Notes: generated from the sequence alone by a model not told the origin. A stretch of DNA of 64,000 nt from Pirellulales bacterium (GCA_040397585.1 JBBAVS010000003.1:5169-69168); one strand, 5' to 3'. Shown: positions 23,575 to 64,000, counted from the stretch's first letter. Program-made: numbers and translations.

Positions 23575-24981
<1,407 letters not shown>

Positions 24982-26324: not shown

Positions 26325-26417
26325 GGGTTGCCCTTCACTTCGTTCGATCGCTTTGCATTGCATCCATTGCAGTTCGCCCGCGGCCTCACGGCCGGTCGGC
26401 TTTCATTCGACATCACT

Positions 26418-27848
26418 CTAGCCCAGAAGTTCCGGCACGACGCGGCCGTGGACGTCGGTGAGGCGGAAATCGCGGCCGCTGTGGCGGTAGGTGAGCCGCG
26501 TGTGGTCGAGGCCGAGCAGATGCAGCATGGTCGCCTGCAGGTCGTGCACGTGCACCGGCTTCTCCACGGCCTTGAACCCGAACTCGTCGGTCGCGCCGTG
26601 CACCGTGCCGCCGCGGACGCCGCCACCGGCCATCCAGACCGTGAACCCGTGGTGATTGTGGTCACGGCCCGAGGGCTCGCTCACCCCGGTGCCCGGCGCC
26701 GGGAGTTCGACCGTGGGCGTCCTGCCGAACTCACCCCCCCAGAGCACGAGCGTGCTGTCGAGCATTCCGCGACCGACGAGGTCGTCGAGGAGCGCGCCGA
26801 TCGCCCGATCACACTCGCCGGCCAATCGGCGGTGGTTGGTCTCGATCTTCTCGTGGCTGTCCCAGGGCTGCCCGGCGCCGTGCCAGACCTGCACGTAGCG
26901 CACGCCCCGTTCGACAAGCCGCCGCGCGATGAGCATCTGCCGCCCCTGCACGTCGTCGCCGTAGCGGGCGAGCACGTGTGCCGGTTCGCGAGACACGTCG
27001 AACGCATCGGTCGCCTCCGACTGCATCCGCCACGCGAGTTCCATCGACGCGAGCCGGGCTTCGAGTGCCGGGTCGTGCGGCCGTGCGGCCAGGTGTTGCC
27101 GATCGAGTTGGGAGATGAGGTCGAACTGCCGCCGCTGCGCAGCACGGTCGAGAACCGGATGGCGGACGTTCTCCACCAGGTCGGCCGCGTCGCGCTTCTT
27201 CGTGTCGATGTACGTGCCCTGGAAGGCGCCCGGCAGGAAGGCGCTTCGCCAGTTCTCGGACTCCTTGATCGGAAAGCCACCCGGGCACATCGCCACGAAC
27301 CCCGGCAGGTTCTGGTTTTCACTTCCCAGCGCGTAGGTCACCCACGCGCCGGCCGACGGCCGCACGAGCCGCGCGTCACCGCAGTTCATGAGCATCAGCG
27401 AGGGCTCGTGATTGGGCACGTCGGCATGCATCGATCGCACGACCAGCAGGCGGTCGGCATGCCGCGCCACCGACGGAAACAACTCGCTCACCTCCAGGCC
27501 GCTCTCGCCGTGCCGCGAAAACCGGAACGGGGACGGCAGGGCCGCGCCCGTGCGGCGCTCCGTCGGCAGGTTCGTGGGAATCTCCCGGCCGGCATGGGCG
27601 GCGAGCACGGGCTTCGGATCGAAGGTGTCGATGTGGCTCGGGCCGCCGTTGGCAAAGATGTGGATCACCGCCCGTGCCCGCGCCGGAAAGTGGGCCGCCC
27701 GCGGCGCGAGGGTCAGGCCCGACCCCGCCACGTCCGCCCGTTCGGCGGCGAGGAGGCTCGCCGCACCGAGCCAGCCCAGCCCCAGGCCGCCGCGGCAGAG
27801 CGCGTCGCGGCGGGAGAGGAATCGGTCGGGGGGCAGGTCGTCGTGCAT
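26418..27848 (-). CDS. DUF1501 domain protein (Tat signal)
   Basis: MHDDLPPDRFLSRRDALCRGGLGLGWLGAASLLA. VIHIFANGGPSHIDTFDPKP. WGGEFGRTP...GRDHN. VHVHDLQATMLHLLG. Paralogous to 23575..24981. Confidence 0.9.
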   Translation of the reverse strand: MHDDLPPDRFLSRRDALCRGGLGLGWLGAASLLAAERADVAGSGLTLAPRAAHFPARARAVIHIFANGGPSHIDTFDPKPVLAAHAGREIPTNLPTERRTGAALPSPFRFSRHGESGLEVSELFPSVARHADRLLVVRSMHADVPNHEPSLMLMNCGDARLVRPSAGAWVTYALGSENQNLPGFVAMCPGGFPIKESENWRSAFLPGAFQGTYIDTKKRDAADLVENVRHPVLDRAAQRRQFDLISQLDRQHLAARPHDPALEARLASMELAWRMQSEATDAFDVSREPAHVLARYGDDVQGRQMLIARRLVERGVRYVQVWHGAGQPWDSHEKIETNHRRLAGECDRAIGALLDDLVGRGMLDSTLVLWGGEFGRTPTVELPAPGTGVSEPSGRDHNHHGFTVWMAGGGVRGGTVHGATDEFGFKAVEKPVHVHDLQATMLHLLGLDHTRLTYRHSGRDFRLTDVHGRVVPELLG

Positions 27849-27875
27849 GGTGCGAGCTGTCTTTCCGAAGCTACT

Positions 27876-30764: not shown

Positions 30765-30860
30765 GGGGCCGCCTCTCGAACAGAAACCACGTGACACACT
30801 AGTATAGTTGGCATGGGTTATGGAATAACCAGCAACTGGTTTCGAAAAAGATGGCGCTGC

Positions 30861-30909
30861 GGTCCTCATGGGGCCTCATAAGGCCTCATGGGCCTCATGG
30901 GTCCTCATG
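30861..30909. repeat. Tandem repeat, 5 copies of a 9-10 bp unit (GGYCCTCATR)
   Basis: Read directly: ggtcctcatg / gggcctcata / aggcctcatg / ggcctcatg / ggtcctcatg. The last copy contains the stop codon (tca at 30905-30907) of the minus-strand gene 30905..34996. The repeat lies ~100 nt upstream of the start of gene 27876..30764. Confidence 0.85.
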
Positions 30910-41003: not shown

Positions 41004-41116
41004 GTGATCCTCCTTCCACGCAGCTTGGGCGTTGATGCCCCGGCCCGAAGCCGGAACCACGCCAATGAAGTTTATCGCGACCCGGCCTTGCTGGCCGCCG
41101 CGCGAGATCCCGCCCC

Positions 41117-42154
41117 TCACAGCTTGAACAGCCGCCGGGCGTTGCCGCCCAGGATCTTGGCCTCGGTCTCCGCAGGCAGGCCGAGCTGCTCGAACGCCCC
41201 GAAGATCTCGGCCGCTTCAACCCAGGGATGGTCGCTGGCGAACAGGAGCTTGTCGGCCGACGTGAAGTCGAGGGCGAACCGCATCGCCTCCGGCAGCGGC
41301 GAAACGATGTCCATGAAGATGTCGCGGAGGTAGTCGCTCGGCTTCTTCCGCAGGTGCTGCGGCCCGCGCTTCAAGACCCTCACCTGATGATCCATCCGGC
41401 CGCAGAGGTAGGGCAGCGCACCGCCGAGGTGCGGGCAGACGACCGCCAGGTCCGGATGCCGGTCGAGGAGGCCGCTGGCGATGATCCGGGCCAGCGCGAT
41501 CGTGTCCTCGAACATGTTGCCGAGCGTGCCGGTGAGCTCGTAGCCGCAGACCGCATCGGTAGTCAGCGGCTTGGCGGGGTGGAGCAGCACGGGCAGGCCG
41601 AGTTCCTCGGCCCGCGCGTAAAGCCAGTGGAAGGGAGCCTCGTCGCACCAGACGCCCGCGAGGTTCGAGTAGAGCAGGATGCCGCGGAAGCCAGGCAGGC
41701 CCAGGCAGCGCGTGAGCTCCGCACGGGCCGCCTGCTCGTCCTGCAGCGGCAGGGTGGCGAGCCAGCTGAAGCGGCCCGGATGGAGCGGCACGAGCGCCGC
41801 CAGCGCGTCGTGGATCCGCTCCGCGATCCGCAGGCCGTCGGCGCCGAACCATTCCGGTCCCGGATCGTTGGTGCTCAGCAGGGCGTGGTCGATGCCGCTG
41901 GCGTCCATCATCGCCAGCTTGTCGGCCACGCTGGCGTAATGCGGCGGCACCTTGCGGAGCCAGCCGCCCATCCGCAGCATCGTCGCGCCGTCCTGGTCGT
42001 AGACGAGCGGCTCGGTGGTCCGCCGCCGCATCTCCTCGAGCACCTCGGGCAGAAAGAGATGGGTCTGGCAGTCGACGACATACGGCCGTGACACCGGTCG
42101 GTCCGGGACGGCAGACTGCGTGGTCGGGCCGGGCGGGCGGGGTATGGACGGCAT
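41117..42154 (-). CDS. Amidohydrolase-2 (ACMSD/TIM-barrel metal-dependent hydrolase) family protein
   Basis: N-terminal metal-ligand region YVVDCQTHLF. C-terminal LLFASDHPWV...KILGGNARRLFKL, typical of the amidohydrolase_2 family. It starts 11 nt after the sulfatase stop. Confidence 0.8.
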   Translation of the reverse strand: MPSIPRPPGPTTQSAVPDRPVSRPYVVDCQTHLFLPEVLEEMRRRTTEPLVYDQDGATMLRMGGWLRKVPPHYASVADKLAMMDASGIDHALLSTNDPGPEWFGADGLRIAERIHDALAALVPLHPGRFSWLATLPLQDEQAARAELTRCLGLPGFRGILLYSNLAGVWCDEAPFHWLYARAEELGLPVLLHPAKPLTTDAVCGYELTGTLGNMFEDTIALARIIASGLLDRHPDLAVVCPHLGGALPYLCGRMDHQVRVLKRGPQHLRKKPSDYLRDIFMDIVSPLPEAMRFALDFTSADKLLFASDHPWVEAAEIFGAFEQLGLPAETEAKILGGNARRLFKL

Positions 42155-51216: not shown

Positions 51217-53634
51217 CTAAGCCGTCCGCCGGCGGAGCCGCCAGCCCAGCAGGAGCCCCGCCATGCCGATGGCGACGCCAGCCGATGCTGGCTCCGGAAC
51301 GGCCGCGATCGAGCCCGCCGAGGGTGCCGGCGCGTTGTAGAACCCGGCGTCGAACAGCCCCGTCGAGAGGAAGTCGGCGGCATCGAGGATGTCGACGACC
51401 CCGTCGTAGGTGAAGTCGCCCTGGTTCCAGGTCGCCGGGTCGCCCGAGTCGAACTTGCCGGCCGACAGGAAGTTGGCCGCATCGAGGATGTCGACCATCC
51501 AGTCGAGGTTCGTGTCGCCCCCCGCCGCATAGGCGACGGCCAGCGAGCCATCGCCGTTGTCGAGCCAGCCCACCGTCCGTAAGCCGCCGCTGCTCGCCGC
51601 CGCACTGGACGTGATGCCGCTCGTGCCGGTCCACGTGCCGCCAGCGCGGCCGGCGAGAATGTCGGCGACGAGGTCAGCAGCGGAACCGGACGCGATGTTG
51701 ATCAAGCCCCGGCCCAGATCGACCAAGCCGCCAGAGGCCTGATCGACCGTGAGCGACGAGACCGTCATGGAAACGGCGGACGAGCCCGAAAGCGCCACCG
51801 AGCCGGTGTTGCTGACCACCACCGCCGGCGAGCCGACCACACTGCCTGCCGCCCCGATCACCAGCGACTTGATGCCGGAGTTGGAGTCGGCCTTGATGGT
51901 GGCACCGGCGCCGTCGAGCGTGCCGTTGACCGAGACCCGCGACGCGATCACGTTCGCGCCCGGATCGACCCTCAGCGTGGCGCCGGGCTGCACGGTCGTG
52001 GTGCCCGACCAGTTCACGAATGCCTGCGAGCCCGACACCCGCAGCGTGCCCTGGGAAACGGTCGTCGAATACGTCCACGAGTTCGAGCCGCTGAGCACGA
52101 ACTCGCCGGCACCCGTCTTCGTGAACGTCTTGGTGTTCATGGGGCTGAACACCGTGAGATTCATGTTGGAAACATCGGAGCCCACGGTGAACCCGGGATC
52201 GCTCTGGCTCACGGTGCCGCTCGCCACATTCATGGCTTGATCCTTGGCGAACTGGAAGGCTCCGTCGGTCCTCCGCTGCCCGACTCTGGCCTGCCAGACG
52301 GCCAAGTCGACGGCGTCGACCTTCGAATCGCCGTTGCCGTCCGCGCCCCAGTAGCTGAGCCCATTGGCGTTCACGGTTGCCCAGTCGAGCGGCGCCGCGC
52401 CGCTATAGGTGAGTCCATTTTGGCTCTGCCAGTAGACGTAATCTCCCTGGTCGACCACGCCGTCCGTATTGAAATCCGCCACGTCGAATGCGGCCACGGT
52501 GGCCACCTTCGTCACCAGGGTGTCGAGGCGAGCGGGACTCACGCCGGTGGACATGTTCACCTTGATGGCCGTGTTGGCGAGCGATGTCCATGCGGCACCA
52601 GTTTCGGGCCCAACATCGACGAAGCCGCGTTTTGCACCCCGATTTATATCAGCTTGCGTATACGCCACTGACGGGTCCGGTGCATCCGTCTGCACGTAGT
52701 AAATGACGCCCTCGTTGCGATCCGTGTAGACCTGCATCATTCCGCCCGCATATTGGATGCCGACCGTCCCGGAGGCAATGAGCGGAGCGATCTGCGCCGT
52801 GTGCGTGGTCCCCTGGCGAAAACCATCTCGGGCAGACAGGTCGGTTCCGATCATCTGGCCACCGGAAAACTGAAAACCGCCGCCCTGAAAGCGGAGCGTG
52901 CCTCGGTCATCCTGAGCGATGTCCCCGGGACTTCCCGCCGCGAAGAACCTCGTCGCCATCAGCACGCCACCGGAGATCGTCCCCGTCGCGAACGCTGCGT
53001 TGCCGTTCGACGCGGACTGCCCCATCGAGATGGCGGCGCTGGACACCGTCGTTCCGCCGGTAATGTTGAACAACGTACGGTACCCGACGTTTCCACCACC
53101 GGTCGAAAACTGGATCGAGTTGTTATTCACCGTGGCATTGGCGAACAGCGTTCCAGCCGACTGGTTGTAGACGGCAACCGAGTTGTTCCCACTGCGGCCG
53201 TCGGTCGTGAAGAACTCTCCATCCACCTGCAGACTTCCACCGGTCACGTTCAGCGTGGAGGTGCCAGTGGCGGTGTTGGCACCGAGGGAAAGCCGGGTGT
53301 CACCCGATCCCTGCGAAAGCAGGTAGTTCCCGCCCGTCATGTTGAAGACGCCGCCGTAGTTGACGTTCAATCGCCTGACGCTCGGCCCGCTGCTGAATGA
53401 AGGATTGTTCGACGCAGCGCCGACCTGTGCGATGTTGGTTGTGCCGTTCGGAACGCTACCGCCGTCCCAGTTGGCCCCATCGTTGTAGTCGGTGCTCACC
53501 GAACCGTTCCAATTCACGGTCGTTTGAGCAACCGCCGCACCGCTCCATGCGACTCCCAGGGTGACCGCGAGGCACGCGGTAAGCACCGTTCCTGTGTTCA
53601 ACGTTCGCCGAGATACGCCGTGCAAAATAAACAT
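51217..53634 (-). CDS. Secreted PEP-CTERM-anchored protein with autotransporter-associated beta-strand (PATR-like) repeats and dockerin/EF-hand-like D-x-D-x-DG repeats
   Basis: Signal peptide MFILHGVSRRTLNTGTVLTACLAVTLGVAWSGAAVAQ. PATR-like FTKTGAGEFVLSGSNSWTYSTTVSQGTLRVSG. Dockerin-like DFNTDGVVDQGDYVYW, DGNGDSKVDAVDLAVW, GDTNLDWMVDILDAANF and GDFTYDGVVDILDAADF. C-terminal VPEPASAGVAIGMAGLLLGWRLRRR, which is PEP motif + TM + basic tail. Confidence 0.85.
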   Translation of the reverse strand: MFILHGVSRRTLNTGTVLTACLAVTLGVAWSGAAVAQTTVNWNGSVSTDYNDGANWDGGSVPNGTTNIAQVGAASNNPSFSSGPSVRRLNVNYGGVFNMTGGNYLLSQGSGDTRLSLGANTATGTSTLNVTGGSLQVDGEFFTTDGRSGNNSVAVYNQSAGTLFANATVNNNSIQFSTGGGNVGYRTLFNITGGTTVSSAAISMGQSASNGNAAFATGTISGGVLMATRFFAAGSPGDIAQDDRGTLRFQGGGFQFSGGQMIGTDLSARDGFRQGTTHTAQIAPLIASGTVGIQYAGGMMQVYTDRNEGVIYYVQTDAPDPSVAYTQADINRGAKRGFVDVGPETGAAWTSLANTAIKVNMSTGVSPARLDTLVTKVATVAAFDVADFNTDGVVDQGDYVYWQSQNGLTYSGAAPLDWATVNANGLSYWGADGNGDSKVDAVDLAVWQARVGQRRTDGAFQFAKDQAMNVASGTVSQSDPGFTVGSDVSNMNLTVFSPMNTKTFTKTGAGEFVLSGSNSWTYSTTVSQGTLRVSGSQAFVNWSGTTTVQPGATLRVDPGANVIASRVSVNGTLDGAGATIKADSNSGIKSLVIGAAGSVVGSPAVVVSNTGSVALSGSSAVSMTVSSLTVDQASGGLVDLGRGLINIASGSAADLVADILAGRAGGTWTGTSGITSSAAASSGGLRTVGWLDNGDGSLAVAYAAGGDTNLDWMVDILDAANFLSAGKFDSGDPATWNQGDFTYDGVVDILDAADFLSTGLFDAGFYNAPAPSAGSIAAVPEPASAGVAIGMAGLLLGWRLRRRTA

Positions 53635-53837
53635 CGTGATCCTCGCTACATCATGGGTGAAAAGAAGAGCAATCATGCCGTGACGGTGTTCGCTGGGGCG
53701 CCGCCGAAACACACCTGATGGCGGACGAGCCAGCCGATTTCGGTCGATCCCCCAACACGTTTAATTGTCGCCCCTAGGCAAGTTAGAGCGATGTCGGCCC
53801 CACCTGTCAACGAGGCGGCGATGGGGTATCAGCGCAC

Positions 53838-57222: not shown

Positions 57223-58011
57223 TCAGCGGCGGCTGATCACCAGGTCGAGGCAGCGGAGCCAGAAGTCGGCGTATTTCTTCCAGAACACGAGGTTGCAGCC
57301 CCAATGCGGCGCCGGGTCGGAGGAGTAGCAGAGCACCGTGCCCCGGCCTTCCTGGGCCGCGACCACCAGCGGGTCGCCCGTCTCCTTGATCGTGAGCAGG
57401 GCTTCGCGGCCCGGCTTGAGCCGCACCTGGTTGTAGCCCAGCAGGGGCGGGCAGTCGGTGAGATCGAGCCCCGCGAAGGCCTTCTTGCCCGCCGCGGTCG
57501 CCACCGGCTGATAGCCCTCGGTGCTCTCCACGAGATCCTCGTGGTCGAGGCACTCCACGGGCATCACCTCGCGGAGCAGGGTCCGCCCCCAGCCCCCCTT
57601 GCCCTGCTCGCCGGTAAACGAATACCAGCCCCCGAGCAGCATGAGTCCTTTCCCTTGCCGCACCGCGTCGATCGTGAGTCGGACGCGGTCGGGAAAGGTG
57701 AGCACGCCGTGGCCGAACTTCGCCCGGTCGAAGAAGCTCGGCGCGAGCTGGAAGAGCTTTCCCTCGACGTCGCTGAAGATGATCACGTCGTACTCTGCCA
57801 GGATCCGCTCGTAGGCCCCGGGACCGAGCTTGTAGAACTCCCAGGACGGCACGCTCGTCACCTGGTGGACGCCGGTCGATTCGACCGCCTCCTTGAGCCA
57901 GGTGCCGTAGTTGAAGACGTCGAGCCCCTTCATCGCGTTCTGGAAGGGGGACTCGGCGAACCAGGGGCCGGTCAGCACGGCCCAGTCGCCGACGTAATAC
58001 ACCTTCGCCAT
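57223..58011 (-). CDS. Class-I glutamine-amidotransferase-like (GATase1_like / former DUF1355-type) cytoplasmic protein
   Basis: MAKVYYVGDWAVLTGPWF..., YDVIIFSDVEG..., LMLLGGWYSFTGEQGKGGW... and CYSSDPAPHWG match the conserved pattern of putative-glutamine-amidotransferase family proteins. GGAGGA lies 7 nt before the ATG at 58011. The track start at 58014 is a GTG. Confidence 0.75.
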   Translation of the reverse strand: MAKVYYVGDWAVLTGPWFAESPFQNAMKGLDVFNYGTWLKEAVESTGVHQVTSVPSWEFYKLGPGAYERILAEYDVIIFSDVEGKLFQLAPSFFDRAKFGHGVLTFPDRVRLTIDAVRQGKGLMLLGGWYSFTGEQGKGGWGRTLLREVMPVECLDHEDLVESTEGYQPVATAAGKKAFAGLDLTDCPPLLGYNQVRLKPGREALLTIKETGDPLVVAAQEGRGTVLCYSSDPAPHWGCNLVFWKKYADFWLRCLDLVISRR

Positions 58012-58136
58012 CACGCTCCTCCGCAGCCGCGGATTTGAAAGACCGGCCTCGATCGGGGTAGCCTAGCACGGTCGGTGGGAGCGTCGAGAGCGGAAGCGGC
58101 CGGTCGACGCGGCGGACAACCCTCGTGGAGAAGCCC

Positions 58137-59381
58137 ATGCGAACCCTGCCATCGGTCTGCTGCGGAGTCGTGGCGGCGCTCCTGGTCGCGCTGCCGGTGA
58201 TGGCCCGCGAACGCGCGGTGGCTCCGGCGGCCGATCGCACGGTGGTTGCCCGCTGCGGCGCCGGCTTCCTCGAGGAGGTCGGCGGCCATGCCGTCCTGCA
58301 CGTCGCCGGCACGCCCTACGAGATGGGCTTCCAGCACGGCCGGCTGCTCCGGGAGCACGTGCACGCCGTGGTCCGGTTCCTGCTCGACGAGAAGGCCAAG
58401 GAGATGACGGCCGAGGTGGCGGGCATGGAACTGATGTCGCCGCAGCTCATCATCCAGGGCATCCAGGCGGTGCAGCAGCCTTTCCTGCCCGACTGGTACG
58501 ACGAGGAACTCCGCGGGCTGGCCGACGGCTCGGGCGTGCCGCTGGCCGACATCCGCACGGCCAACTTCATCCCGGAGCTCTTCCACTGCTCCGGATTTGC
58601 GGTCTCGGGGGCGGCCACGGGCAACGAGCACACCTACCACGGCCGTGTGCTCGACTACGGCTGCGACTGGCGGCTCCAGGAGCACCCGGTCGTGATCGTG
58701 GCCAGGCCCGCCGGCAAGATCCCGTTCGTCAACGTCGGCTACGCCGGCTTCATCGGCAGCGTGACCGGGATGAACGCGGAACGGATCAGTGCGGGGGAGA
58801 TGGGGGGCGCGGGGCTGGGCAAGTGGCTGGGCGTGCCGATGGCGGTGCTGATGCGGGAGGTGCTCCAGGGAGCTGACACGCTCGCCGAGGCGGTGGCGGT
58901 GTTCCGCGACAACCCGCGAACCTGCGAATACTACTACGTGCTCGCCGACGGCAAGACCGGCGAGGCCGTGGCCCTTGAGGCCGGCGCCGACGAGTTTCGG
59001 GCGGTGGAGATGGGCGCCACGTGCGAGCGGCTGCCGCATGCCGTCGAGGACGCGGTGCTGCTCTCGGCGGGGGATCGCTACGAGCTGCTCGTGAAGCGGG
59101 TGCGGGAGGCCCATGGCCGGATCGACGCCGAGGCGGCACTGGCGCTGATGGATCGGCCGGTGAGCATGACGTCGAACCTGCACAACGTGCTCTTCGAGAC
59201 GTCGACCGGGCGGTTCTGGGTGGCGCATGCCTCTCCCGACGGCAAGCCTGCGGCCGAGCAGGCTTACCTGGGCTTCGACCTGCGGGCGCTGCTCGCGCAC
59301 GAGCCCGGCCCAGACGCGAAGGAACTGCCGGGACCGGAACCGGCGGCCGTTGGCAAGACGGTGGCCGCCGGCGCGGACTGA
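58137..59381 (+). CDS. Secreted peptidase C45 family protein (acyl-CoA:6-APA acyltransferase-like Ntn hydrolase)
   Basis: Signal peptide MRTLPSVCCGVVAALLVALPVMARE. LHVAGTPYEMGFQHGRLLREHV is the C45 N-terminal block. The candidate nucleophile is in LFHCSGFAVSGAAT, then YHGRVLDYG. The track start at 58125 is a GTG, so the ATG at 58137 is preferred. Confidence 0.8.
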   Translation: MRTLPSVCCGVVAALLVALPVMARERAVAPAADRTVVARCGAGFLEEVGGHAVLHVAGTPYEMGFQHGRLLREHVHAVVRFLLDEKAKEMTAEVAGMELMSPQLIIQGIQAVQQPFLPDWYDEELRGLADGSGVPLADIRTANFIPELFHCSGFAVSGAATGNEHTYHGRVLDYGCDWRLQEHPVVIVARPAGKIPFVNVGYAGFIGSVTGMNAERISAGEMGGAGLGKWLGVPMAVLMREVLQGADTLAEAVAVFRDNPRTCEYYYVLADGKTGEAVALEAGADEFRAVEMGATCERLPHAVEDAVLLSAGDRYELLVKRVREAHGRIDAEAALALMDRPVSMTSNLHNVLFETSTGRFWVAHASPDGKPAAEQAYLGFDLRALLAHEPGPDAKELPGPEPAAVGKTVAAGAD

Positions 59382-59415
59382 GCGACCGGCACACGTGCCT
59401 CGAGAGGACCGGCGG

Positions 59416-61446
59416 ATGACGATCGAAGCGGCCGGCCTGGAGGCATCCAGCGGCTGGTCTGCCGGGGTCATCGAGGGCTTCTACGGGCCGCCTTGGACGC
59501 GGGCCGAGCGGGAGCAACTCCTCGACTGGATGGCGCGGTTCGGCCTGACGACCTATCTGCACGCGCCGAAGGACGACCCCCACCATCGCGCCGTCTGGCG
59601 GCGGCCGCTGCCGCCGGCGGCCGTCGCCGACCTGGCCGACCTCGTCGCCGCCTGCCGCCGCCGGGGCATCGCCTTCGTGTGGGCAATCCATCCCGGCCTC
59701 GACATCCGGTATTCGTCGGCCGCCGATCTCGCGGCCTTGATCGCCCGGCTGGAGCAGGTCGCTGCTGCGGGCGGCCGGGACTTCGCCCTCCTGTTCGACG
59801 ACGTGCCGGGAACACTCGAGCCCGAAGACGCCCGGGCCTTCGCGAGCCTGGCCGCCGCGCAGGCGCACGTCGCCAACCGCGTGCACGAGTGGCTCCGCGG
59901 CCGCGATGCCGCCGGGCGGATGCTCATCTGCCCGACGGCGTATTGCACCCGAATGGCCGACGCGGGCCTCGGCGGCGCCGGCTACCTGCGGGAGCTCGGC
60001 GAGCGGCTCGCGCCGGGCATCGACGTGCTCTGGACCGGCCCTGAGATCATCTCCCGGGAGATCACGGTCGACCATCTGACCGGCGTGGCGAGCCTCCTGA
60101 AGCGGCCCCCCGTGCTCTGGGACAATCTGTTCGCCAACGACTACGACATCGGCCGCTTCTTCGCCGGCCCGTTCGCCGGCCGGCCCACCGCCATCCGCGA
60201 CCACGTTCGCGGCGTGCTCGTGAATCCCAACAACGAACTGCCCCTCAACTTCGGGCCGCTGCACACGCTCGGGGCCTTCATGCGGTCCGGCCCCGACTTC
60301 GACCCGCGGGCGGCCCACCTGGAGGCCATGCGGGACTGGCTGCCGGCCTTCACGCTGCTGCCTCGCGGCGCCGAGCCCCGCCCCGCCATCAATGAGGACG
60401 AGGTCATTCTCCTGGGCGACTGCTTCTACCTGCCGCACGAGTACGGCGCCGGGGCCCGGCAGCTGCTCGAGACCGCCGGCCGGTTGCTCGCCGCGCCGGG
60501 CCTGCCCGGACAGGACGCCGACCTGCGCCGCACGGCGAGCGGGCTGATCGCGTTGACCAATCGCCTCGCCGACCTGCAGGACCGCGGCCTGGCGCACGCC
60601 ATGGCCCGGCGGCTGTGGGCGCTCCGCGACGAACTCACGCTCCTGCTCGTGCGGCTCGACGCCGCGGCGGGACGACCCCGCCCCGACGACGACCATCTGC
60701 CGGGCACGTTTCGCGGCGGCCTCGTCGCCGACCTCCGGCGGCTGCTCCCCTTCGATCCGGGACCGTCGCTGGCGGGCGTCCGCGAGCTCCGGCCGCGGCC
60801 GGCGATCCTGCGGCCGGCCCGGGGCGACGACCTGGCGGGCTGCGCGCGAGTGTGCCTGGAGACCGGCGATCACGGCGCGGACGGCACGCCCTTCTACACC
60901 GACGACCCCGACGCGCTGGCGCGGATCTACGTCGCCCCCTATCTCGCGCTCGAGCCGGGGTTGGCCTTCGTGCTCGAGGACGAGCAGGGGGTCTGCGGCT
61001 ACGTGCTCGCGGCGGTCGACTCGCGGTCGTTTTACGCCCGCTACGACTCCGAACTGCGGCCGCAGCTCGTGGCCGCGTTTCCAGAGCCGACCGGCGACCC
61101 GGCCGGGTGGACCCGCGCCCAGCAGGTGCATCGCTCCTACCACCATCCCGACTACCACTGCCCCGAACCCGCCGCCGAGTATCCCGCCCACGCGCACATC
61201 GATCTCGCCCCCCGGGCCCAGGGGCTGGGCTACGGCGGGCCGATGATGCGGCACATCCTCGCGGAACTCGCCCGCCGCGGGGCGCCGGGCGTGCACCTCG
61301 GCGTGAGCGGAAAGAACCCGCGGGCTCTGGCCTTCTACGCCCGGCTCGGCTTCGTGGAGCTGGAGCGGCGCGGGCCGCCCGACGACCAGACCGTCTATCT
61401 CGGGCTGAAGCTGGCGGCCGCCCCGTCGGGAGCCACGCGGCCATGA
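59416..61446 (+). CDS. Cytoplasmic GH84 beta-N-acetylglucosaminidase (O-GlcNAcase-like) fused to a C-terminal GNAT acetyltransferase domain
   Basis: GH84 blocks are present: GVIEGFYGPPWTRAEREQLLDWM, TYLHAPKDDPHHRAVWR, the catalytic pair in FALLFDDVPG (DD at 59797-59802), VLWDNLFANDYD and GVLVNPNNELPLNF. The C-terminal ~200 aa (about 60800-61400) has the GNAT motif A RAQGLGYGG (61213-61236) and NPRALAFYARLGFVEL. No signal peptide is visible. Confidence 0.88.
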   Translation: MTIEAAGLEASSGWSAGVIEGFYGPPWTRAEREQLLDWMARFGLTTYLHAPKDDPHHRAVWRRPLPPAAVADLADLVAACRRRGIAFVWAIHPGLDIRYSSAADLAALIARLEQVAAAGGRDFALLFDDVPGTLEPEDARAFASLAAAQAHVANRVHEWLRGRDAAGRMLICPTAYCTRMADAGLGGAGYLRELGERLAPGIDVLWTGPEIISREITVDHLTGVASLLKRPPVLWDNLFANDYDIGRFFAGPFAGRPTAIRDHVRGVLVNPNNELPLNFGPLHTLGAFMRSGPDFDPRAAHLEAMRDWLPAFTLLPRGAEPRPAINEDEVILLGDCFYLPHEYGAGARQLLETAGRLLAAPGLPGQDADLRRTASGLIALTNRLADLQDRGLAHAMARRLWALRDELTLLLVRLDAAAGRPRPDDDHLPGTFRGGLVADLRRLLPFDPGPSLAGVRELRPRPAILRPARGDDLAGCARVCLETGDHGADGTPFYTDDPDALARIYVAPYLALEPGLAFVLEDEQGVCGYVLAAVDSRSFYARYDSELRPQLVAAFPEPTGDPAGWTRAQQVHRSYHHPDYHCPEPAAEYPAHAHIDLAPRAQGLGYGGPMMRHILAELARRGAPGVHLGVSGKNPRALAFYARLGFVELERRGPPDDQTVYLGLKLAAAPSGATRP

Positions 61447-62732
61447 GCGGCGGAGACGAACTCGTCGCCGGGTCGCCCCGCCGGCTCGCCCAGCGGCTGG
61501 CCAACTTCGCGGAGCGACCGATCATGGCCTCGATCCGCTCGGGCGTGGCGGCGGTGGTGCCGCTGACGATCGTCGGCGGCCTGTTCATGCTCCTGGCCAA
61601 CCCGCCGCTGCCGGTTCTCGAGCGGCTGCTCGCCCCCTGGGCCGACCTGCTGCGGATTCCGGTCACCGCCACGTTCGGCATCCTGGGCCTGTTCGTCTGC
61701 CTCGCCGTGGCCCACGAGCTCGGTGGCCGCCGCGGTCAGGATCCGCTCTCGAGCACGATCCTCGCCGGCGCGAGTTTTTTGCTGCTCGCCGTCGACCCGG
61801 CGACCGGCCGGCTCGCCCCGGAGCCGCTCGGCTCGCAGGGGATCTTGGTGGCGATCCTCGTCGGCGTCGTGGCGGTGGAGGTGCAGGCCCTCCTCGCCCG
61901 TCGCGGCCTGGTGATCAAGATGCCGGCGGGCGTGCCCCGGATCATCTACGAGTCGTTCGCGGCGCTGGTGCCGCTGACGGTGCTCGTGACCGGCTTCTGG
62001 TGCCTGCGGTTCGTGCTGGGCATCGACCTGGCGGCCGTGGTCGAGCGGATCTTCCGGCCGCTCGTGTTCGCCCTCGACACGCTGCCCGGGATCGTGACGT
62101 TCGCGTTTCTGGTCACGCTGCTCTGGTCGGTGGGCATCAACGGCGACAACGCCCTCGACCCGATCGTGGGCCCGTTCTTCCTGCAGTACCTGGCCGCGAA
62201 CGTGGAGGCCTGGGAGCGGGGCGCGCCGCCGCCCCATCCGACGGCCCTCGGGTTCTTCACCACCTTCGTCAACGTCGGCGGCACCGGCGCGACGCTCGCG
62301 CTGGCACTGGTGCTGCTCAACTCCCGCAATCCGGTCCATCGCCGCGTCAGCCGGCTCTCGCTGCCCGCGCAGGTGTTCCAGATCAATGAGCCGTTGTTCT
62401 TCGGCCTGCCGGTCGTGCTCAATCCGATCCTGATGCTGCCCTACGTGATCAACGCGGTGCTCCTGGCCGGCGCCACGTTCCTGCTGATGGAGTGGGGCCT
62501 CGTGGGCCGGCCGGTGGTCGGTATTCCCTGGACCACGCCGCCGATCGTCGGCCACTACCTCGCCACGGGAGGCGACTGGCGGGCCGCCGCGTGGGGCGGC
62601 GTGTCGATCCTCGTGGCGATGGCGGTCTACTGGCCCTTCGTCCGGCTCTGGGAGCGGCAGGGGGTCGGGCCGGACCCGGCAGCGGAGCCGTCGTCCGCCG
62701 GGTCGAAAACCCTGCCGCGGAGCCAGCCATGA
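61443..62732 (+). CDS. PTS EIIC-type permease (lactose/cellobiose/chitobiose family), stand-alone
   Basis: Its ATG overlaps the GH84 stop as ATGA. The profile is polytopic and hydrophobic. LANFAERPIMASIRSGVAAVVPLTIVGGLFMLLANPP and SVGINGDNALDPIVGPFFLQYLAANVEAWERG resemble ChbC/CelB-type EIIC. Confidence 0.8.
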   Translation: MSGGDELVAGSPRRLAQRLANFAERPIMASIRSGVAAVVPLTIVGGLFMLLANPPLPVLERLLAPWADLLRIPVTATFGILGLFVCLAVAHELGGRRGQDPLSSTILAGASFLLLAVDPATGRLAPEPLGSQGILVAILVGVVAVEVQALLARRGLVIKMPAGVPRIIYESFAALVPLTVLVTGFWCLRFVLGIDLAAVVERIFRPLVFALDTLPGIVTFAFLVTLLWSVGINGDNALDPIVGPFFLQYLAANVEAWERGAPPPHPTALGFFTTFVNVGGTGATLALALVLLNSRNPVHRRVSRLSLPAQVFQINEPLFFGLPVVLNPILMLPYVINAVLLAGATFLLMEWGLVGRPVVGIPWTTPPIVGHYLATGGDWRAAAWGGVSILVAMAVYWPFVRLWERQGVGPDPAAEPSSAGSKTLPRSQP

Positions 62733-63793
62733 CGAGCATCCTCGCGACCGGCCACGAGTTCACCACGATCTTCGGCCGCAACCTCCTCGGCGAGATTCCC
62801 GCGATCGCCCGGCCGCCGTATCTGGTGGTCACGATGGCCGACCTCTGGGAGAAGTTCCGGCACCACTTCACCGGCGACCTGGCCGGGCCGTATTTCGTCC
62901 ACACGATCGACGGCGCCGAGCTGGCCGCCGAGCTGCCGGCGCTGCCCGCCTGCGGCTCGGTGGTGGGACTGGGCGGCGGCCAGGCGATCGACGTGGCGAA
63001 GTTCATCGCCTGGTCGCGAAGGCTGCCGCTGTTCCAGATTCCGACGTCGCTGTCGGTCGACGCGGCCTACGGCCACCGGGCCGGGCTGCGCTACGGGGGC
63101 TACGTGAAGTACGTCGGCTTCGCCGTGCCCGAGGCGGTGTATGTCGATTTCGACGTGATCGCGGCCGCGCCGCCCCACCTCAACCGCAGCGGGATCTGCG
63201 AGGTGCTCTGCTTCCATACGGCCCACGCCGACTGGCGGCTGGCCCGCGACCGCGGCCGCACGCCCGCGAAGTGGCCCTACGACCAGCGGCTCGTCGACGA
63301 GGCCCAGGGCGTGATGCGGGGGGTGCTGGAGCGGCTCGACGACATCCACGCCGTGAACGAGGCCGGCATCCGCACGCTGGCGACGGCGCAGCGCTGGGCC
63401 GGGGCCTCCTTCCACAACGCCGGCTGGAACCCCTGCCATATCGAGGCCACCGACCACTTCGTCTTCTATGCGTTGGAGTATTTCACCGGCCGGAAGTTCC
63501 TCCACGGGCAGCCGGTCTGCCTGGGGATCGTGGTCGGCTCGATGCTGCACGACGACCGGGCCGACGAGATGCTGGCGGCGATCCGCCGCGTGGGCGTGGA
63601 CATCCGGCCCGAGGCGATGGGCATCGGCTGGGACGATGTCGCCTTCGCCCTCACGCGGATCCGGTCGTTCGTCCGCGAGGCTGGGTTGTGGTATTCGATC
63701 CTCGACGAGGTGGAGATCACGCCCGCGTTCGTGGCCGCGCTGCGGGAGCGGATCACCGCGGCGTACGGCCCGTGGACGGAGCCATCGGCATGA
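62729..63793 (+). CDS. Iron-containing alcohol dehydrogenase superfamily protein, sn-glycerol-1-phosphate dehydrogenase (AraM/EgsA)-like
   Basis: Its ATG overlaps the EIIC stop as ATGA. NAD-binding VVGLGGGQAIDVAKFIA. IPTSLSVDAAYGHRAGL. DFDVIAAAPPHLNRSGICEVL...HADWRLA matches the G1PDH/AraM-type pattern (PTxxSxDG ... GxGD ... DWxLA) with substitutions. Confidence 0.75.
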   Translation: MTSILATGHEFTTIFGRNLLGEIPAIARPPYLVVTMADLWEKFRHHFTGDLAGPYFVHTIDGAELAAELPALPACGSVVGLGGGQAIDVAKFIAWSRRLPLFQIPTSLSVDAAYGHRAGLRYGGYVKYVGFAVPEAVYVDFDVIAAAPPHLNRSGICEVLCFHTAHADWRLARDRGRTPAKWPYDQRLVDEAQGVMRGVLERLDDIHAVNEAGIRTLATAQRWAGASFHNAGWNPCHIEATDHFVFYALEYFTGRKFLHGQPVCLGIVVGSMLHDDRADEMLAAIRRVGVDIRPEAMGIGWDDVAFALTRIRSFVREAGLWYSILDEVEITPAFVAALRERITAAYGPWTEPSA

Positions 63794-63872
63794 CGCGCTG
63801 CCCGACGCCCTTCGCATGATCGCGAAGGGCGCCGAGGCGCCGCCCCACCTGGCAGGCCGGGCTGCGGGAGCC

Positions 63873-64000
63873 CTACCAGGTGATCCGGATCGGCGTGACG
63901 AAACGGCGGACGGTGGTCATCGGCACCTCGTCGGTGTCGAGGGCGCGACGCTGGTAGAGCGTGTACAGGTCGCCGTCGTGGCTCGGCGTGACCTCGATCA
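63873..64000 (-). CDS. 3' end of an unidentified minus-strand gene running off the right edge
   Basis: The reverse frame is open to the window edge (...IEVTPSHDGDLYTLYQRRALDTDEVPMTTVRRFVTPIRITW-stop at 63873-63875), with mostly G/C at third positions. It is too short to classify. Confidence 0.3.
   Translation of the reverse strand, partial: IEVTPSHDGDLYTLYQRRALDTDEVPMTTVRRFVTPIRITW

What the first reader, a model, noticed from the sequence alone, without database searches (positions are those of the whole stretch)
59416..61446. Bacterial GH84 fused to a GNAT domain: same two-domain plan as metazoan O-GlcNAcase, but with an intact-looking acetyl-CoA motif
The N-terminal half has the GH84 catalytic Asp-Asp in FALLFDDVPG and blocks closely resembling animal OGA (YxHAPKDD, WDNxxANDYD, NPNxE). 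The C-terminal ~200 aa is a GNAT fold with a canonical motif A (R/Q-x-x-G-x-G: RAQGLGYG). Animal OGA also ends in a GNAT-like domain, generally regarded as a pseudo-acetyltransferase. Most characterised bacterial GH84 enzymes instead carry CBM/FN3/cohesin-type modules and are secreted. This protein has no signal peptide, so it may be a cytoplasmic hexosaminidase with a potentially active acetyltransferase. That bears on the evolutionary origin of OGA, and on a possible coupled de-glycosylation and acetylation (or HexN re-acetylation) activity.
Basis: partly seen in the sequence, partly recalled or inferred. Interest (0 to 1): 0.75.

Follow-up and report, generated by a model that had tools for sequence, protein, structure and literature searches.

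The report
Bacterial O-GlcNAcase-like enzyme fused to acetyltransferase
A planctomycete gene encodes one cytoplasmic protein that joins a GlcNAc-cleaving enzyme of the human O-GlcNAcase type to an acetyltransferase domain that still looks active; it is a fused version of a known bacterial gene pair and most likely works in amino-sugar scavenging, not signalling.

Summary
ORF 59416..61446 (+) encodes 676 aa with four parts: GH84 catalytic barrel, helical stalk, short flexible linker and a C-terminal GNAT domain. It is collinear with full-length human OGA (E 1e-102).

The GNAT half is 50-60% identical to OgpAT, the acetyl-CoA-binding acetyltransferase of Oceanicola granulosus (E 1e-44). It keeps every acetyl-CoA contact residue that metazoan pseudo-HAT domains have lost.

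The fusion is real. The exact protein sits in a 112-member cluster from independent assemblies, and about 57 further clusters share the architecture. It is a variant of something published: OgOGA and OgpAT are adjacent genes. Here most relatives proved to be such overlapping (ATGA) gene pairs, and fusion arose several times.

The gene is translationally coupled to an orphan cellobiose/chitobiose-family EIIC permease. In other phyla the pair lies inside ABC sugar-importer or GlcNAc-utilisation loci (kinase, NagA-like, SIS, GntR).

Best reading: cytoplasmic beta-N-acetylglucosaminidase plus amino-sugar N-acetyltransferase for imported oligosaccharides. The acceptor is inferred, not shown. A rough tree does not place metazoan OGA next to this fused clade. 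Moderate interest.

The parts
59416..61446 (+). Whole gene: 676-aa GH84-stalk-linker-GNAT fusion protein (OGA-like)
   Evidence: ORF and translation. Collinear with full-length human OGA, E 1e-102. The exact protein is in a 112-member cluster.
59402..59408 (+). GAGAGGA, possible ribosome-binding site 7 nt upstream of the ATG
   Evidence: Read directly from the sequence. Inference only.
59464..60339 (+). GH84 catalytic (beta/alpha)8 barrel, aa 17-308
   Evidence: Pfam PF07555 E 6e-76. hOGA aa 59-335 aligns at 250 bits. The AF2 model matches OgOGA with TM 0.90 normalised to the target.
59797..59802 (+). Catalytic Asp128-Asp129 (equivalent to hOGA D174-D175)
   Evidence: Aligned to the hOGA DD pair. 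Invariant in 28 homologues.
60340..60753 (+). Helical stalk domain, aa 309-446, ending in the conserved HLPGTFRGG...LRRLLP motif
   Evidence: Aligns to hOGA stalk residues 554-700 within the second stretch, E 1e-26, and to isolated stalk chains 5uhk_B at E 2e-4. Helices are predicted at 275-443.
60754..60795 (+). Interdomain linker, aa 447-460
   Evidence: pLDDT below 50. This is the most variable region in length and sequence in the family alignment. It corresponds to the stop/start overlap of split gene pairs.
60796..61413 (+). OGA-type GNAT acetyltransferase domain, aa 461-666
   Evidence: OgpAT 3ZJ0 E 1e-44, SsAT 4BMH E 1e-31, Trichoplax pHAT 6R45 E 5e-17. Pfam GNAT families also match. 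pLDDT is about 90 or higher.
61189..61206 (+). Beta4 strand HAHIDL: His594 (OgpAT His135, proposed base) and Asp596 (OgpAT Asp137)
   Evidence: Alignment to OgpAT. Residue roles come from PMC3814719. Invariant in the family.
61213..61236 (+). Motif A / P-loop RAQGLGYG (Q602-G603-L-G605-Y-G607) for the acetyl-CoA pyrophosphate
   Evidence: Matches Q/R-x-x-G-x-G/A and OgpAT Q143-G148. hOGA has T-D-P-S-V-A at these positions.
61443..62732 (+). Orphan PTS EIIC-type permease (lactose/cellobiose/chitobiose family). Its start overlaps the OGA stop (ATGA).
   Evidence: Sequence. Pfam PF02378 E 3e-40. NCBIfam TIGR00410 scores 287.6 bits against a cut-off of 236. A homologue lies beside or near the GH84/GNAT genes in 23 loci.
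62729..63793 (+). Fe-ADH_2 / glycerol(-1-phosphate) dehydrogenase-like gene. Its start overlaps the EIIC stop (ATGA).
   Evidence: Sequence. Pfam PF13685. PDB glycerol dehydrogenase 3CE9 E 4.5e-18. The same family is found fused to OGA-type GNAT domains elsewhere, in P0137 and P0153.

Best explanation
The gene encodes a soluble cytoplasmic bifunctional enzyme. It arose by read-through fusion of a widespread, translationally coupled bacterial gene pair: an OgOGA-like GH84 gene followed by an OgpAT-like GNAT gene.

The N-terminal GH84 barrel plus stalk is a retaining beta-N-acetylglucosaminidase. It uses the substrate's own 2-acetamido group for catalysis, with Asp128/Asp129. The C-terminal domain is an acetyl-CoA-dependent N-acetyltransferase.

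The three-gene unit (fusion gene, EIIC permease, polyol-dehydrogenase-like gene) takes up a beta-linked amino-sugar oligosaccharide. Candidates are chitobiose, partly deacetylated chito-oligosaccharides or cell-wall fragments. The hydrolase then releases GlcNAc for catabolism.

The most likely job of the GNAT domain is to N-acetylate glucosamine or a terminal glucosaminide. A GH84 cannot cleave a residue that lacks the acetamido group, so acetylation would make it a substrate ('acetylate, then cleave'). It would also let a GlcNAc-specific kinase take the product.

Shown: architecture, conserved catalytic and cofactor residues, gene coupling, conserved context. Inferred: both activities, the identity of the imported sugar, and the acceptor of the acetyl group.
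For: Architecture and active sites:
- The protein is collinear with hOGA, and its parts match OgOGA and OgpAT.
- All sugar-binding and catalytic GH84 residues are invariant in 28 homologues: Y23, K52, D53, D128, D129, Y176, W235, N237, D242, Y243, N270.
- All OgpAT acetyl-CoA contacts are kept: T483, H594, D596, Q602-G603-x-G605-x-G607, N634, Y641. They are conserved in 67-71 of 73 family members (56 and 60 of 73 for Q602 and G603), but lost in hOGA and TaOGA (residue roles).
- OgpAT binds AcCoA with Kd about 8 uM and SsAT with Kd 20 uM (PMC3814719, PMC3919268).

Localisation: no signal peptide or membrane segment.

Origin by fusion: in 26 of 32 loci with both parts, the GH84 ORF stops and the GNAT gene follows in another frame or after an in-frame stop. 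In the split pairs inspected the stop and start overlap (L021, L030, L037). The window's linker spans that junction.

Context:
- ATGA coupling to the EIIC gene and the dehydrogenase-like gene.
- EIIC is linked to the GH84/GNAT genes in 23 loci of Planctomycetota and Verrucomicrobiota.
- In Dongia sedimenti the pair lies inside an SBP-permease-permease-GH84-GNAT-MalK operon.
- In an acI actinobacterium the locus also holds a PIG-L deacetylase, a GntR/UTRA regulator, a NagA-like amidohydrolase, a SIS protein, an ABC importer and a BadF/G-type kinase.
- A kinase of that type directly follows the fused gene in L005 and the split pair in L030.

Domain fusions: this GNAT family is also found fused to GKRP/MurQ-like SIS plus ROK kinase, to SIS_2, to Fe-ADH_2 and to an LD-carboxypeptidase.

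Precedent: the fungal GH3-GNAT enzyme RmNag needs its acetyltransferase to cleave (GlcN)2 (PMC4680927). The SsAT acceptor pocket suits a small polar molecule.
Against: - No activity of this protein or of any close relative has been measured. No acceptor is known for OgpAT or SsAT.
- The GNAT domain shows no detectable sequence similarity to a sugar acetyltransferase in the PDB search. The RmNag and GlmA parallels are therefore analogies, not homology.
- The EIIC has no IIA or IIB partner within 4 kb in 20 loci. Its transport mode and its sugar are unknown.
- Two recurrent neighbours are not explained by a simple GlcNAc pathway: a DegT-family aminotransferase in 10 verrucomicrobial loci, and the Fe-ADH_2-like gene here.
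- OgOGA removes O-GlcNAc from a glycopeptide in vitro (PMC2973230), so a protein substrate is not excluded.
Confidence: 0.6

Rival explanations
1. It is a true bacterial counterpart of animal OGA. It would remove O-GlcNAc from cytoplasmic proteins, with the GNAT domain acetylating proteins (lysine or N-terminus), giving a glycosylation/acetylation switch.
For: - It is closer in sequence to hOGA than to the secreted bacterial GH84 enzymes.
- Several hOGA groove residues are kept: Y23, S144, T174, Y243, D244 (mapped onto PMC2973230).
- OgOGA deglycosylates a glycopeptide in vitro.
- The nearest structural neighbours of OgpAT are the protein N-acetyltransferases Naa50 and RimI.
Against: - Across four phyla the pair sits in sugar-uptake and GlcNAc-catabolic operons, not next to an OGT.
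- None of the about 25 larger ORFs of the window that were scanned (one 1412-aa ORF was not) matches GT41.
- The equivalents of hOGA E218, F223 and K289, which are needed for protein substrates, are A, M and G here.
- Modelling a peptide acceptor into SsAT gives steric clashes, and its pocket favours small molecules.
- Reversible intracellular O-GlcNAc had not been detected in bacteria at the time of the OgpAT paper.
Confidence: 0.1
2. The GNAT domain is not a catalyst. It would act as an acetyl-CoA-sensing or purely structural module that regulates the hydrolase, foreshadowing the allosteric pseudo-HAT of animal OGA.
For: In human OGA the catalytically dead pHAT and its linker regulate activity allosterically (PMC12494797). 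Fusion to the hydrolase would favour such coupling. No acceptor has ever been found for OgpAT or SsAT.
Against: The putative base His594 is invariant, as are Asp596, Asn634 and Tyr641, even at 47% overall identity and in free-standing homologues. The domain mostly exists as a separate about 205-aa protein, and it is also fused to unrelated sugar enzymes. That pattern fits an enzyme better than a regulator of GH84.
Confidence: 0.1
3. The acetyltransferase acts on a different amine made in the same cluster. An example would be an amino sugar or aminocyclitol produced by the dehydrogenase plus DegT-type aminotransferase neighbours. The module would then belong to a modification, biosynthetic or detoxification route rather than to GlcN salvage.
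For: - A DegT/DnrJ/EryC1 aminotransferase lies next to the GH84 and GNAT genes in 10 loci (between GNAT and EIIC in most).
- GFO/IDH/MocA oxidoreductases recur nearby.
- GNAT-Fe-ADH_2 fusions exist, and an Fe-ADH_2-like gene is coupled here.
- Oxidoreductase, aminotransferase and acetyltransferase together form the classic route to acetamido sugars (general knowledge).
Against: These neighbours are lineage-specific. The only partners shared across all phyla are a sugar importer and GlcNAc-catabolic genes. No nucleotidyl-sugar or glycosyltransferase genes were seen.
Confidence: 0.15
4. The fusion is an artefact: a frameshift or assembly error that joins two adjacent genes.
For: Most relatives are two overlapping genes, so a single-base error could mimic a fusion.
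Against: The exact 676-aa protein recurs in a cluster of 112 members from independent assemblies. About 57 further 90% clusters of 660-705 aa, down to 47% identity, are single ORFs. L001, L003, L005, L006 and L007 have no stop between the two halves.
Confidence: 0.01

Closest known systems
Oceanicola granulosus OgOGA (PDB 2XSA) plus OgpAT (PDB 3ZJ0), adjacent genes in one operon
   Same: Same GH84 barrel plus stalk (E 3e-89; AF2 model TM 0.90) and same OGA-type GNAT (E 1e-44, 50-60% identity). The gene order matches. The AcCoA P-loop and the His/Asp/Asn/Tyr residues are intact, and there is no signal peptide.
   Different: Here the two are one polypeptide joined by a linker of about 14 residues. 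The context is an EIIC permease operon in a planctomycete. The biological function of the Oceanicola pair is itself unknown.
Metazoan O-GlcNAcase (human OGA, 5M7R/9QEN; Trichoplax OGA, 9QEP/6R45)
   Same: Collinear GH84-stalk-GNAT architecture. There are two aligned stretches covering aa 13-292 and 324-663 (E 1e-102). The FRGG...LLP motif at the end of the stalk is conserved.
   Different: The animal enzymes have a long disordered insert (916 aa against 676 aa) and a degenerate P-loop (T-D-P-S-V-A), with Lys/Glu in place of His594. They do not bind AcCoA and they act on nucleocytoplasmic proteins opposite OGT. In the NJ tree they are not sister to this fused clade.
Streptomyces sviceus SsAT (PDB 4BMH)
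   Same: Same GNAT subfamily (E 1e-31). It binds AcCoA and has an occluded, tunnel-like acceptor pocket thought to suit a small polar molecule.
   Different: It is free-standing. In the four actinobacterial loci seen here the GNAT gene lies 2-3 kb from the GH84 gene on the opposite strand.
Rhizomucor miehei RmNag (GH3 beta-N-acetylglucosaminidase fused to a glucosamine N-acetyltransferase); Candida Ngs1
   Same: A hexosaminidase and a GNAT in one chain. In RmNag the acetyltransferase acetylates GlcN and is required for cleavage of (GlcN)2. This is the mechanism proposed here.
   Different: The hydrolase family is different (GH3, not GH84). The GNAT is a tandem pair that this GNAT domain did not find in the PDB search. 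These enzymes are eukaryotic. The comparison is an analogy, not homology.
Clostridium acetobutylicum GlmA, glucosamine/glucosaminide N-acetyltransferase (Reith & Mayer 2011, cited in PMC4680927; details from my own knowledge)
   Same: A cytoplasmic GNAT that re-acetylates GlcN and non-reducing-end GlcN of chitosan oligomers and muropeptides for amino-sugar recycling.
   Different: It is not fused to a hydrolase.
Thermobaculum terrenum TtOGA (PDB 5DIY)
   Same: A cytoplasmic bacterial GH84 with a helical bundle (E 1e-52).
   Different: It has no GNAT domain and was studied as part of a putative OGT/OGA pair.

Membership tests
CAZy GH84 beta-N-acetylglucosaminidases | Match to the family profile (PF07555) above the curated threshold | tested here: met
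   256 bits against a cut-off of 25, aa 17-308.
CAZy GH84 beta-N-acetylglucosaminidases | Adjacent catalytic Asp-Asp and the GlcNAc-binding residues (hOGA G67, K98, Y219, W278, N280, D285, N313) | tested here: met
   D128-D129, G21, K52, Y176, W235, N237, D242 and N270 align with these residues and are invariant in 28 homologues.
CAZy GH84 beta-N-acetylglucosaminidases | Hydrolysis of beta-GlcNAc glycosides with retention, and inhibition by PUGNAc or thiamet-G | not testable with these tools
   Needs an enzyme assay.
OgOGA/hOGA-type GH84 with stalk (cytoplasmic type) | Helical stalk domain after the barrel; no CBM, FN3 or cohesin modules; no signal peptide | tested here: met
   The stalk aligns to hOGA 554-700 and to OgOGA up to residue 411. 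The fold match has TM 0.85-0.90. Apart from a sub-threshold overlapping TIM-barrel match, only GH84 and GNAT Pfam domains are found. No hydrophobic N-terminus.
GNAT superfamily | Motif A P-loop Q/R-x-x-G-x-G/A at the start of the helix after beta4 | tested here: met
   Q602-G-L-G605-Y-G607. The model has a strand at 591-597 followed by a helix at 607-620.
GNAT superfamily | Binding of acetyl-CoA and acetyl transfer to an amine | not testable with these tools
   Inferred only, from conservation of the OgpAT contact residues.
OGA-type acetyltransferase subfamily (OgpAT / SsAT / animal pHAT) | The two subfamily-specific insertions: a long alpha1-alpha2 loop, and two extra helices between beta3 and beta4 that form the acceptor tunnel | tested here: met
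   Near-gapless alignment to OgpAT residues 19-193 covers both insertions (27-41 and 78-125) (definition). Helices are predicted at 536-554 and 567-576 between strands 525-533 and 591-597.
Metazoan O-GlcNAcase orthologue (protein O-GlcNAc eraser) | C-terminal domain is a pseudo-acetyltransferase unable to bind AcCoA | tested here: not met
   The P-loop and the catalytic-site residues are intact here, unlike in hOGA and TaOGA.
Metazoan O-GlcNAcase orthologue (protein O-GlcNAc eraser) | Long disordered region interrupting the catalytic and stalk parts | tested here: not met
   hOGA residues 336-553 have no counterpart. The query runs from aa 292 to 324 across that gap.
Metazoan O-GlcNAcase orthologue (protein O-GlcNAc eraser) | Works opposite a GT41 O-GlcNAc transferase on intracellular proteins | not tested
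   No GT41 among the window ORFs scanned, but the rest of the genome is not available.
PTS lactose/cellobiose/chitobiose-family EIIC (downstream gene) | Match to the subfamily model above the cut-off | tested here: met
   TIGR00410 scores 287.6 bits against a cut-off of 236. The equivalog models for cellobiose, lactose and chitobiose IIC are all below their cut-offs.
PTS lactose/cellobiose/chitobiose-family EIIC (downstream gene) | Accompanied by IIA and IIB phosphotransfer components | tested here: not met
   No PF02302 or PF02255 match among 64 coding-like small ORFs within 4 kb of EIIC in 20 loci. Only the local neighbourhood was tested.
Bifunctional hexosaminidase / glucosamine N-acetyltransferase (RmNag type) | GH3 hydrolase plus tandem GNAT with a GlcN pocket | tested here: not met
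   The hydrolase is GH84 and there is a single GNAT. RmNag is absent from the PDB hits of the GNAT domain at E <= 1. The protein may work like RmNag but is not a member.

The most novel reading that the evidence does not exclude
The fused protein is a mechanistically coupled 'acetylate-then-cleave' enzyme for de-N-acetylated amino-sugar oligosaccharides. The whole OGA plan (GH84, stalk, acetyltransferase) would then have originated as a bacterial chito-oligosaccharide or cell-wall salvage cassette. On this reading the enigmatic pseudo-HAT of animal OGA is the relic of a glucosamine N-acetyltransferase.
Probability: 0.3. Interest if true: 0.65.

Novelty: new variant of a known kind. Interest (0 to 1): 0.45.

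Why it matters
The C-terminal domain of animal O-GlcNAcase has been a puzzle for twenty years. It was first reported as a histone acetyltransferase and later shown to be a pseudo-enzyme. The only bacterial clue so far was the OgOGA/OgpAT gene pair, whose function is unknown.

This locus and its relatives add two things:
- Natural single-chain bacterial versions in which the acetyltransferase site is intact. These are ready-made material for biochemistry and for structures of the two domains together.
- A consistent genomic context (sugar importers, GlcNAc kinase, NagA-like, SIS, GntR) that points to amino-sugar salvage as the ancestral job of the module. It gives a concrete acceptor hypothesis, GlcN or glucosaminides, that can be tested in a day with a DTNB assay.

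It does not by itself change the picture of OGA evolution. The module was already known in split form, and the fused clade is not demonstrably the source of the animal gene.

Tried and rejected
- **tblastn coverage as evidence of fusion.** Coverage of residues 16-670 in the genome scan at first suggested about 30 fused species. An ORF and frame check showed that most are two genes in different frames, so that count was withdrawn.
- **GH84 tree.** NJ trees with 100 bootstraps were used to ask whether animal OGA descends from the fused clade. hOGA and TaOGA nest in the OgOGA-like clade, but the nearest neighbours have only 28-47% support.
- **GNAT tree.** The animal pHATs are long branches that simply take the midpoint root, so this tree is uninformative.
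- **Fold search of the full model.** It returned only GH84 hits in the top 50. The GNAT assignment therefore rests on sequence.
- **PTS partners.** A search for IIA/IIB genes near EIIC found none.
- **Downstream 800-aa protein.** The protein encoded after the dehydrogenase-like gene in L001/L006 has no Pfam or PDB match and appears to carry a signal peptide. It was not pursued.
- **Upstream neighbours.** The C45-family gene (58125-59381) is present in L006 but absent in L001. The GATase1-like gene is conserved only among close relatives. Neither is treated as part of the system.
- **Promoter and terminator scans.** No promoter-like sites, and 3 terminator-like hairpins against 1.2 +/- 1.0 expected, all inside coding sequence.
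- **Literature.** Searches for a described bacterial GH84-GNAT fusion found none in the held library. The GlmA paper could not be opened.
Full report
**1. The observation**

The ORF runs from the ATG at 59416 to the TGA at 61444-61446 and encodes 676 aa. A longer reading frame from 59227 overlaps the preceding gene, and homologues begin at the 59416 position. A GAGAGGA lies 7 nt upstream of the ATG.

- YLHAPKDD, aa 47-54
- FALLFDDVPG, aa 123-132
- WDNLFANDYD, aa 235-244
- NPNNE, aa 270-274
- RAQGLGYG, aa 600-607

Pfam gives GH84 (PF07555) over aa 17-308 at E 6e-76, and GNAT families over aa 556-648 at E 7e-9 to 4e-7.

The N-terminus has no hydrophobic core. Maximum Kyte-Doolittle(11) is 0.61, against 2.96 for the signal peptide of the neighbouring C45 protein. 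No segment reaches transmembrane hydrophobicity.

**2. Anatomy**

Against the PDB sequences the protein is collinear with full-length human OGA, total E 1e-102. There are two aligned stretches:
- aa 13-292 with hOGA 59-335 (250 bits)
- aa 324-663 with hOGA 554-913 (96 bits), covering the stalk and the C-terminal pseudo-HAT domain

The roughly 220-residue disordered insert of hOGA is absent.

The first 423 residues match OgOGA of Oceanicola granulosus at E 3e-89. The last 200 residues match OgpAT (3ZJ0) at E 1e-44, SsAT (4BMH) at E 1e-31, and the Trichoplax and human pHAT domains at about 1e-17.

An AlphaFold2 model built on 28 homologues has mean pLDDT 84.8. Confidence is low only at aa 1-12, 419-434, 447-460 and 671-676. 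Its hydrolase and stalk part superposes on OgOGA and hOGA with target-normalised TM 0.85-0.90.

I therefore divide the protein as follows:
- GH84 barrel, aa 17-308
- stalk, aa 309-446
- linker, aa 447-460
- GNAT, aa 461-666

**3. Are both active sites intact?**

In an alignment of 28 single-chain homologues (47-93% identity), the catalytic D128-D129 are invariant. So are the residues that bind GlcNAc in hOGA and OgOGA: G21, Y23, K52, D53, Y176, W235, N237, D242, Y243, N270 (roles).

For the GNAT half I used the residue roles defined in the OgpAT-AcCoA crystal structure:

| Role in OgpAT | OgpAT residue | Window residue |
|---|---|---|
| P-loop | Q143-G148 | Q602-G-L-G605-Y-G607 |
| Candidate general base | His135 | His594 |
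| AcCoA contact | Asp137 | Asp596 |
| AcCoA contact | Asn175 | Asn634 |
| AcCoA contact | Tyr182 | Tyr641 |
| AcCoA contact | Thr25 | Thr483 |
| 3'-phosphate contact | His184 | Arg643 |

In a 73-sequence alignment of the subfamily these positions are conserved in 67-71 sequences (56 and 60 for Q602 and G603). Human OGA instead has Met, Lys, T-D-P-S-V-A and Asp, and Trichoplax OGA is equally degenerate.

OgpAT binds AcCoA with Kd about 8 uM. Swapping its G-R-G for the human D-P-S abolishes binding. SsAT binds with Kd 20 uM. Binding and catalysis by this protein remain inferred.

**4. Is the fusion real, and how common is it?**

The exact protein is in a 90%-identity cluster of 112 members, most of them 676 aa, from many independent JGI, ENA and NCBI assemblies. 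One member is MEI6636573.1, 'MAG: GNAT family N-acetyltransferase [Planctomycetota bacterium]'. About 57 further clusters of 660-705 aa carry both domains. They include MAGs labelled Verrucomicrobiae and Luteitalea.

A scan of one genome per GTDB species gave many loci in which tblastn matched residues 16-670. Checking frames and stops showed that only L006 and L007 (plus L001, L003 and L005 from the other collection) are single ORFs. In 26 of 32 loci with both parts the GH84 ORF ends after 429-472 aa, and the GNAT follows in another frame or after an in-frame stop. In the split pairs inspected the stop and start overlap (L021, L030, L037), with the GNAT protein beginning MS..(I/L)RPARP.

That is the arrangement Rao et al. 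described for OgOGA and OgpAT. The window's linker (..LRRLLPFDPGPSLAGVRELRPRPAILRPARGDD..) spans exactly that junction. The fusion is therefore a read-through of a translationally coupled gene pair.

Other GH84-GNAT single chains (P0132, P0146, P0148, P0160, P0164, P0168, P0268) fall elsewhere in the GNAT tree, among free-standing proteins. Within Planctomycetota both states occur: L016 and L026 are split, while L006, L007 and the window are fused. Fusion has thus happened several times.

**5. Context**

The window is planctomycete DNA. It carries DUF1559/N-methyl proteins and PSCyt/PSD/DUF1501 genes, and has about 70% GC.

The fusion gene's stop overlaps the start of an EIIC permease gene (ATGA at 61443-61446). 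The EIIC stop in turn overlaps the start of an Fe-ADH_2-type gene (ATGA at 62729-62732).

The EIIC passes the NCBIfam lactose/cellobiose-family subfamily cut-off (287.6 against 236 bits) but none of the sugar-specific equivalogs. No IIA or IIB domain was found among coding-like small ORFs within 4 kb of EIIC in 20 loci. The dehydrogenase-like protein is a distant relative of glycerol and glycerol-1-phosphate dehydrogenases.

Across related loci the picture is as follows:
- An EIIC homologue lies next to or within a few kb of the GH84/GNAT genes in 23 loci of Planctomycetota and Verrucomicrobiota.
- In 10 of the related loci a DegT-family aminotransferase gene sits beside the pair, usually between the GNAT and EIIC genes.
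- In the cultured alphaproteobacterium Dongia sedimenti the pair is embedded in an ABC importer operon: SBP, two permeases, GH84, GNAT, MalK-type ATPase.
- In L005 (fused) and L030 (split pair) a BadF/G-type kinase follows directly. This is the family of eukaryote-type GlcNAc kinases, by my own knowledge. A SIS_2 protein comes after it in L030.
- In an acI actinobacterium (L063) a more distant GH84 and an OGA-type GNAT flank a PIG-L-family de-N-acetylase and a GntR/UTRA regulator. Next to them are a NagA-like amidohydrolase, a SIS_2 protein, ABC permeases, an SBP and a BadF/G kinase. That is a textbook amino-sugar utilisation locus.

An exhaustive HMMER search with the GNAT domain found 918 cluster representatives at E <= 1e-10. 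Most are free-standing proteins of about 205 aa. Some are fused to GKRP/MurQ-like SIS domains with or without a ROK kinase, to SIS_2, to Fe-ADH_2 (the family of the window's third gene), or to an LD-carboxypeptidase. Every one of these partners handles sugars, sugar phosphates or cell-wall fragments.

**6. Mechanism proposed**

Shown:
- a cytoplasmic single chain with an intact GH84 site and an intact AcCoA site
- translational coupling to a permease
- conserved association with sugar import and GlcNAc catabolism across four phyla

Inferred:
- The permease brings in a beta-linked amino-sugar oligosaccharide.
- The GH84 part removes terminal beta-GlcNAc.
- The GNAT part N-acetylates GlcN or a non-reducing-end glucosaminide.

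The logic is chemical. GH84 enzymes use the substrate's 2-acetamido group as the nucleophile, so a de-N-acetylated residue is uncleavable until it is re-acetylated.

The fungal GH3-GNAT enzyme RmNag behaves this way: its transferase is dispensable for (GlcNAc)2 but required for (GlcN)2. C. acetobutylicum GlmA re-acetylates GlcN and glucosaminides for recycling (cited; details from my own knowledge). He et al. concluded from the SsAT structure that the acceptor is probably a small polar molecule and that a peptide clashes with the tunnel.

My confidence by step:
- bifunctional cytoplasmic enzyme: about 0.9
- amino-sugar uptake and salvage role: about 0.65
- GlcN or glucosaminide as the specific acceptor: about 0.4

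**7. Rivals**

- *A genuine protein O-GlcNAc/acetylation system.* This is not excluded. OgOGA cleaves a glycopeptide in vitro, and five groove residues are kept. However, three residues needed by hOGA for protein substrates differ (E218 to A, F223 to M, K289 to G), no OGT was seen in the window, and the context is catabolic.
- *A purely regulatory, non-catalytic GNAT.* This is unlikely given the invariant catalytic-site residues and the abundance of free-standing homologues.
- *A different amine acceptor, linked to the DegT and dehydrogenase neighbours.* This remains possible. It is the main unexplained element.
- *An artefact.* Excluded.

**8. Relation to animal OGA**

In an NJ tree of the catalytic domain (71 sequences, 313 columns, 100 bootstraps), hOGA and TaOGA group together (100%). 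They nest inside the OgOGA-like cytoplasmic clade rather than with secreted-type GH84s. Their nearest neighbours are unfused forms from Deinococcota, Hydrogenedentota and Chloroflexia MAGs, with only 28-47% support. They are not sister to the window's fused clade. The GNAT tree is uninformative for the long pHAT branches.

The data are compatible with a bacterial origin of the whole module. They do not show that animals inherited an already fused gene from this lineage.

**9. Novelty**

The module, its gene order and the AcCoA-binding competence of the bacterial AT are published (PMC3814719, PMC3919268). Databases already label the fused proteins automatically.

I found no paper in the held library that describes a bacterial single-chain GH84-GNAT or analyses its genomic context. 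A 2025 structural paper still contrasts bacterial GH84 accessory modules with the metazoan pHAT fusion.

I therefore rate it a new variant of a known kind. It has moderate interest as convenient experimental material and as a source of a testable hypothesis for the ancestral function of the OGA C-terminal domain.

Noticed in passing
window 61443-62732 and 62729-63793: Three genes are chained by ATGA stop/start overlaps: the OGA-GNAT gene, an EIIC gene and an Fe-ADH_2-like gene. The EIIC has no IIA/IIB partner nearby, so it may work as a PTS-independent carrier. The dehydrogenase-like gene has no obvious role in GlcNAc catabolism.
   Followed up: partly
P0123, P0150, P0196, P0202, P0137, P0153, P0126, P0262: The OGA-type GNAT domain also occurs fused to other modules: GKRP/MurQ-like double-SIS proteins with or without a ROK kinase, Fe-ADH_2 dehydrogenases, SIS_2 proteins and an LD-carboxypeptidase. 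This set of domain fusions points to amino-sugar or murein recycling and seems undescribed.
   Followed up: partly
L011 11634-12881; L019 12414-13730; also L013, L014, L016, L017, L021, L022, L024, L026: A DegT/DnrJ/EryC1-family aminotransferase gene lies next to the GH84/GNAT genes in 10 related loci, in most of them between the GNAT and EIIC genes. In L019 a type I phosphodiesterase/nucleotide pyrophosphatase gene is also inserted. The proposed pathway does not explain either.
   Followed up: no
L001 12384-14786 (homologue in L006; only its start lies in the window, at about 63790-64000): An 800-aa protein is encoded directly after the dehydrogenase-like gene. It has an apparent signal peptide and an HxH-containing motif (GDHHVHAAGCSH), but no Pfam or PDB sequence match.
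   Followed up: partly
window 58125-59381 (+) and 57223-58014 (-): Upstream neighbours. One is a C45-family autoproteolytic acyltransferase/hydrolase-like protein with a clear signal peptide; it is present in L006 but absent in L001. The other is a divergently oriented PF07090 'GATase1_like' gene, conserved only among the closest relatives (L001, L003, L006).
   Followed up: partly
L006 (CAZDTC010000020.1): The genome record with the closest GTDB match (81% identity, same gene order including the C45 gene) is labelled 'uncultured Candidatus Kuenenia sp.'. That label sits oddly with this high-GC, Gemmata-like gene content and may reflect mis-binning.
   Followed up: no
(loci L008-L041): Method trap: tblastn joined hits in different frames, so adjacent GH84 and GNAT genes were reported as near full-length matches. 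A frame and stop check was needed to separate split pairs from true fusions.
   Followed up: yes
window 51217-53712 (-), with GC dropping to 0.62 at about 52-54 kb: An 831-aa protein with a passenger-associated-transport repeat lies in a stretch of lower GC than the surrounding roughly 70%. This may be a recently acquired segment.
   Followed up: no
window 7883-11347 (-); 20654-30869; 36807-41120: Typical planctomycete content: a 1154-aa protein with a GH30 domain at its C-terminus, two PSCyt1/PSCyt2/PSD1 plus DUF1501 gene pairs, and a 1437-aa PSD2-5/PSCyt3 protein. Several large ORFs have no Pfam match (11508-14213, 15673-17991, 18091-20433). A ROK-family gene lies at 242-1294.
   Followed up: no
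L063 6183-6977 and 5484-6104: In an acI actinobacterial locus a PIG-L-family de-N-acetylase and the OGA-type N-acetyltransferase are divergent neighbours next to the GH84 gene. This is an opposing deacetylase/acetyltransferase pair on (presumably) the same class of amino sugar.
   Followed up: no
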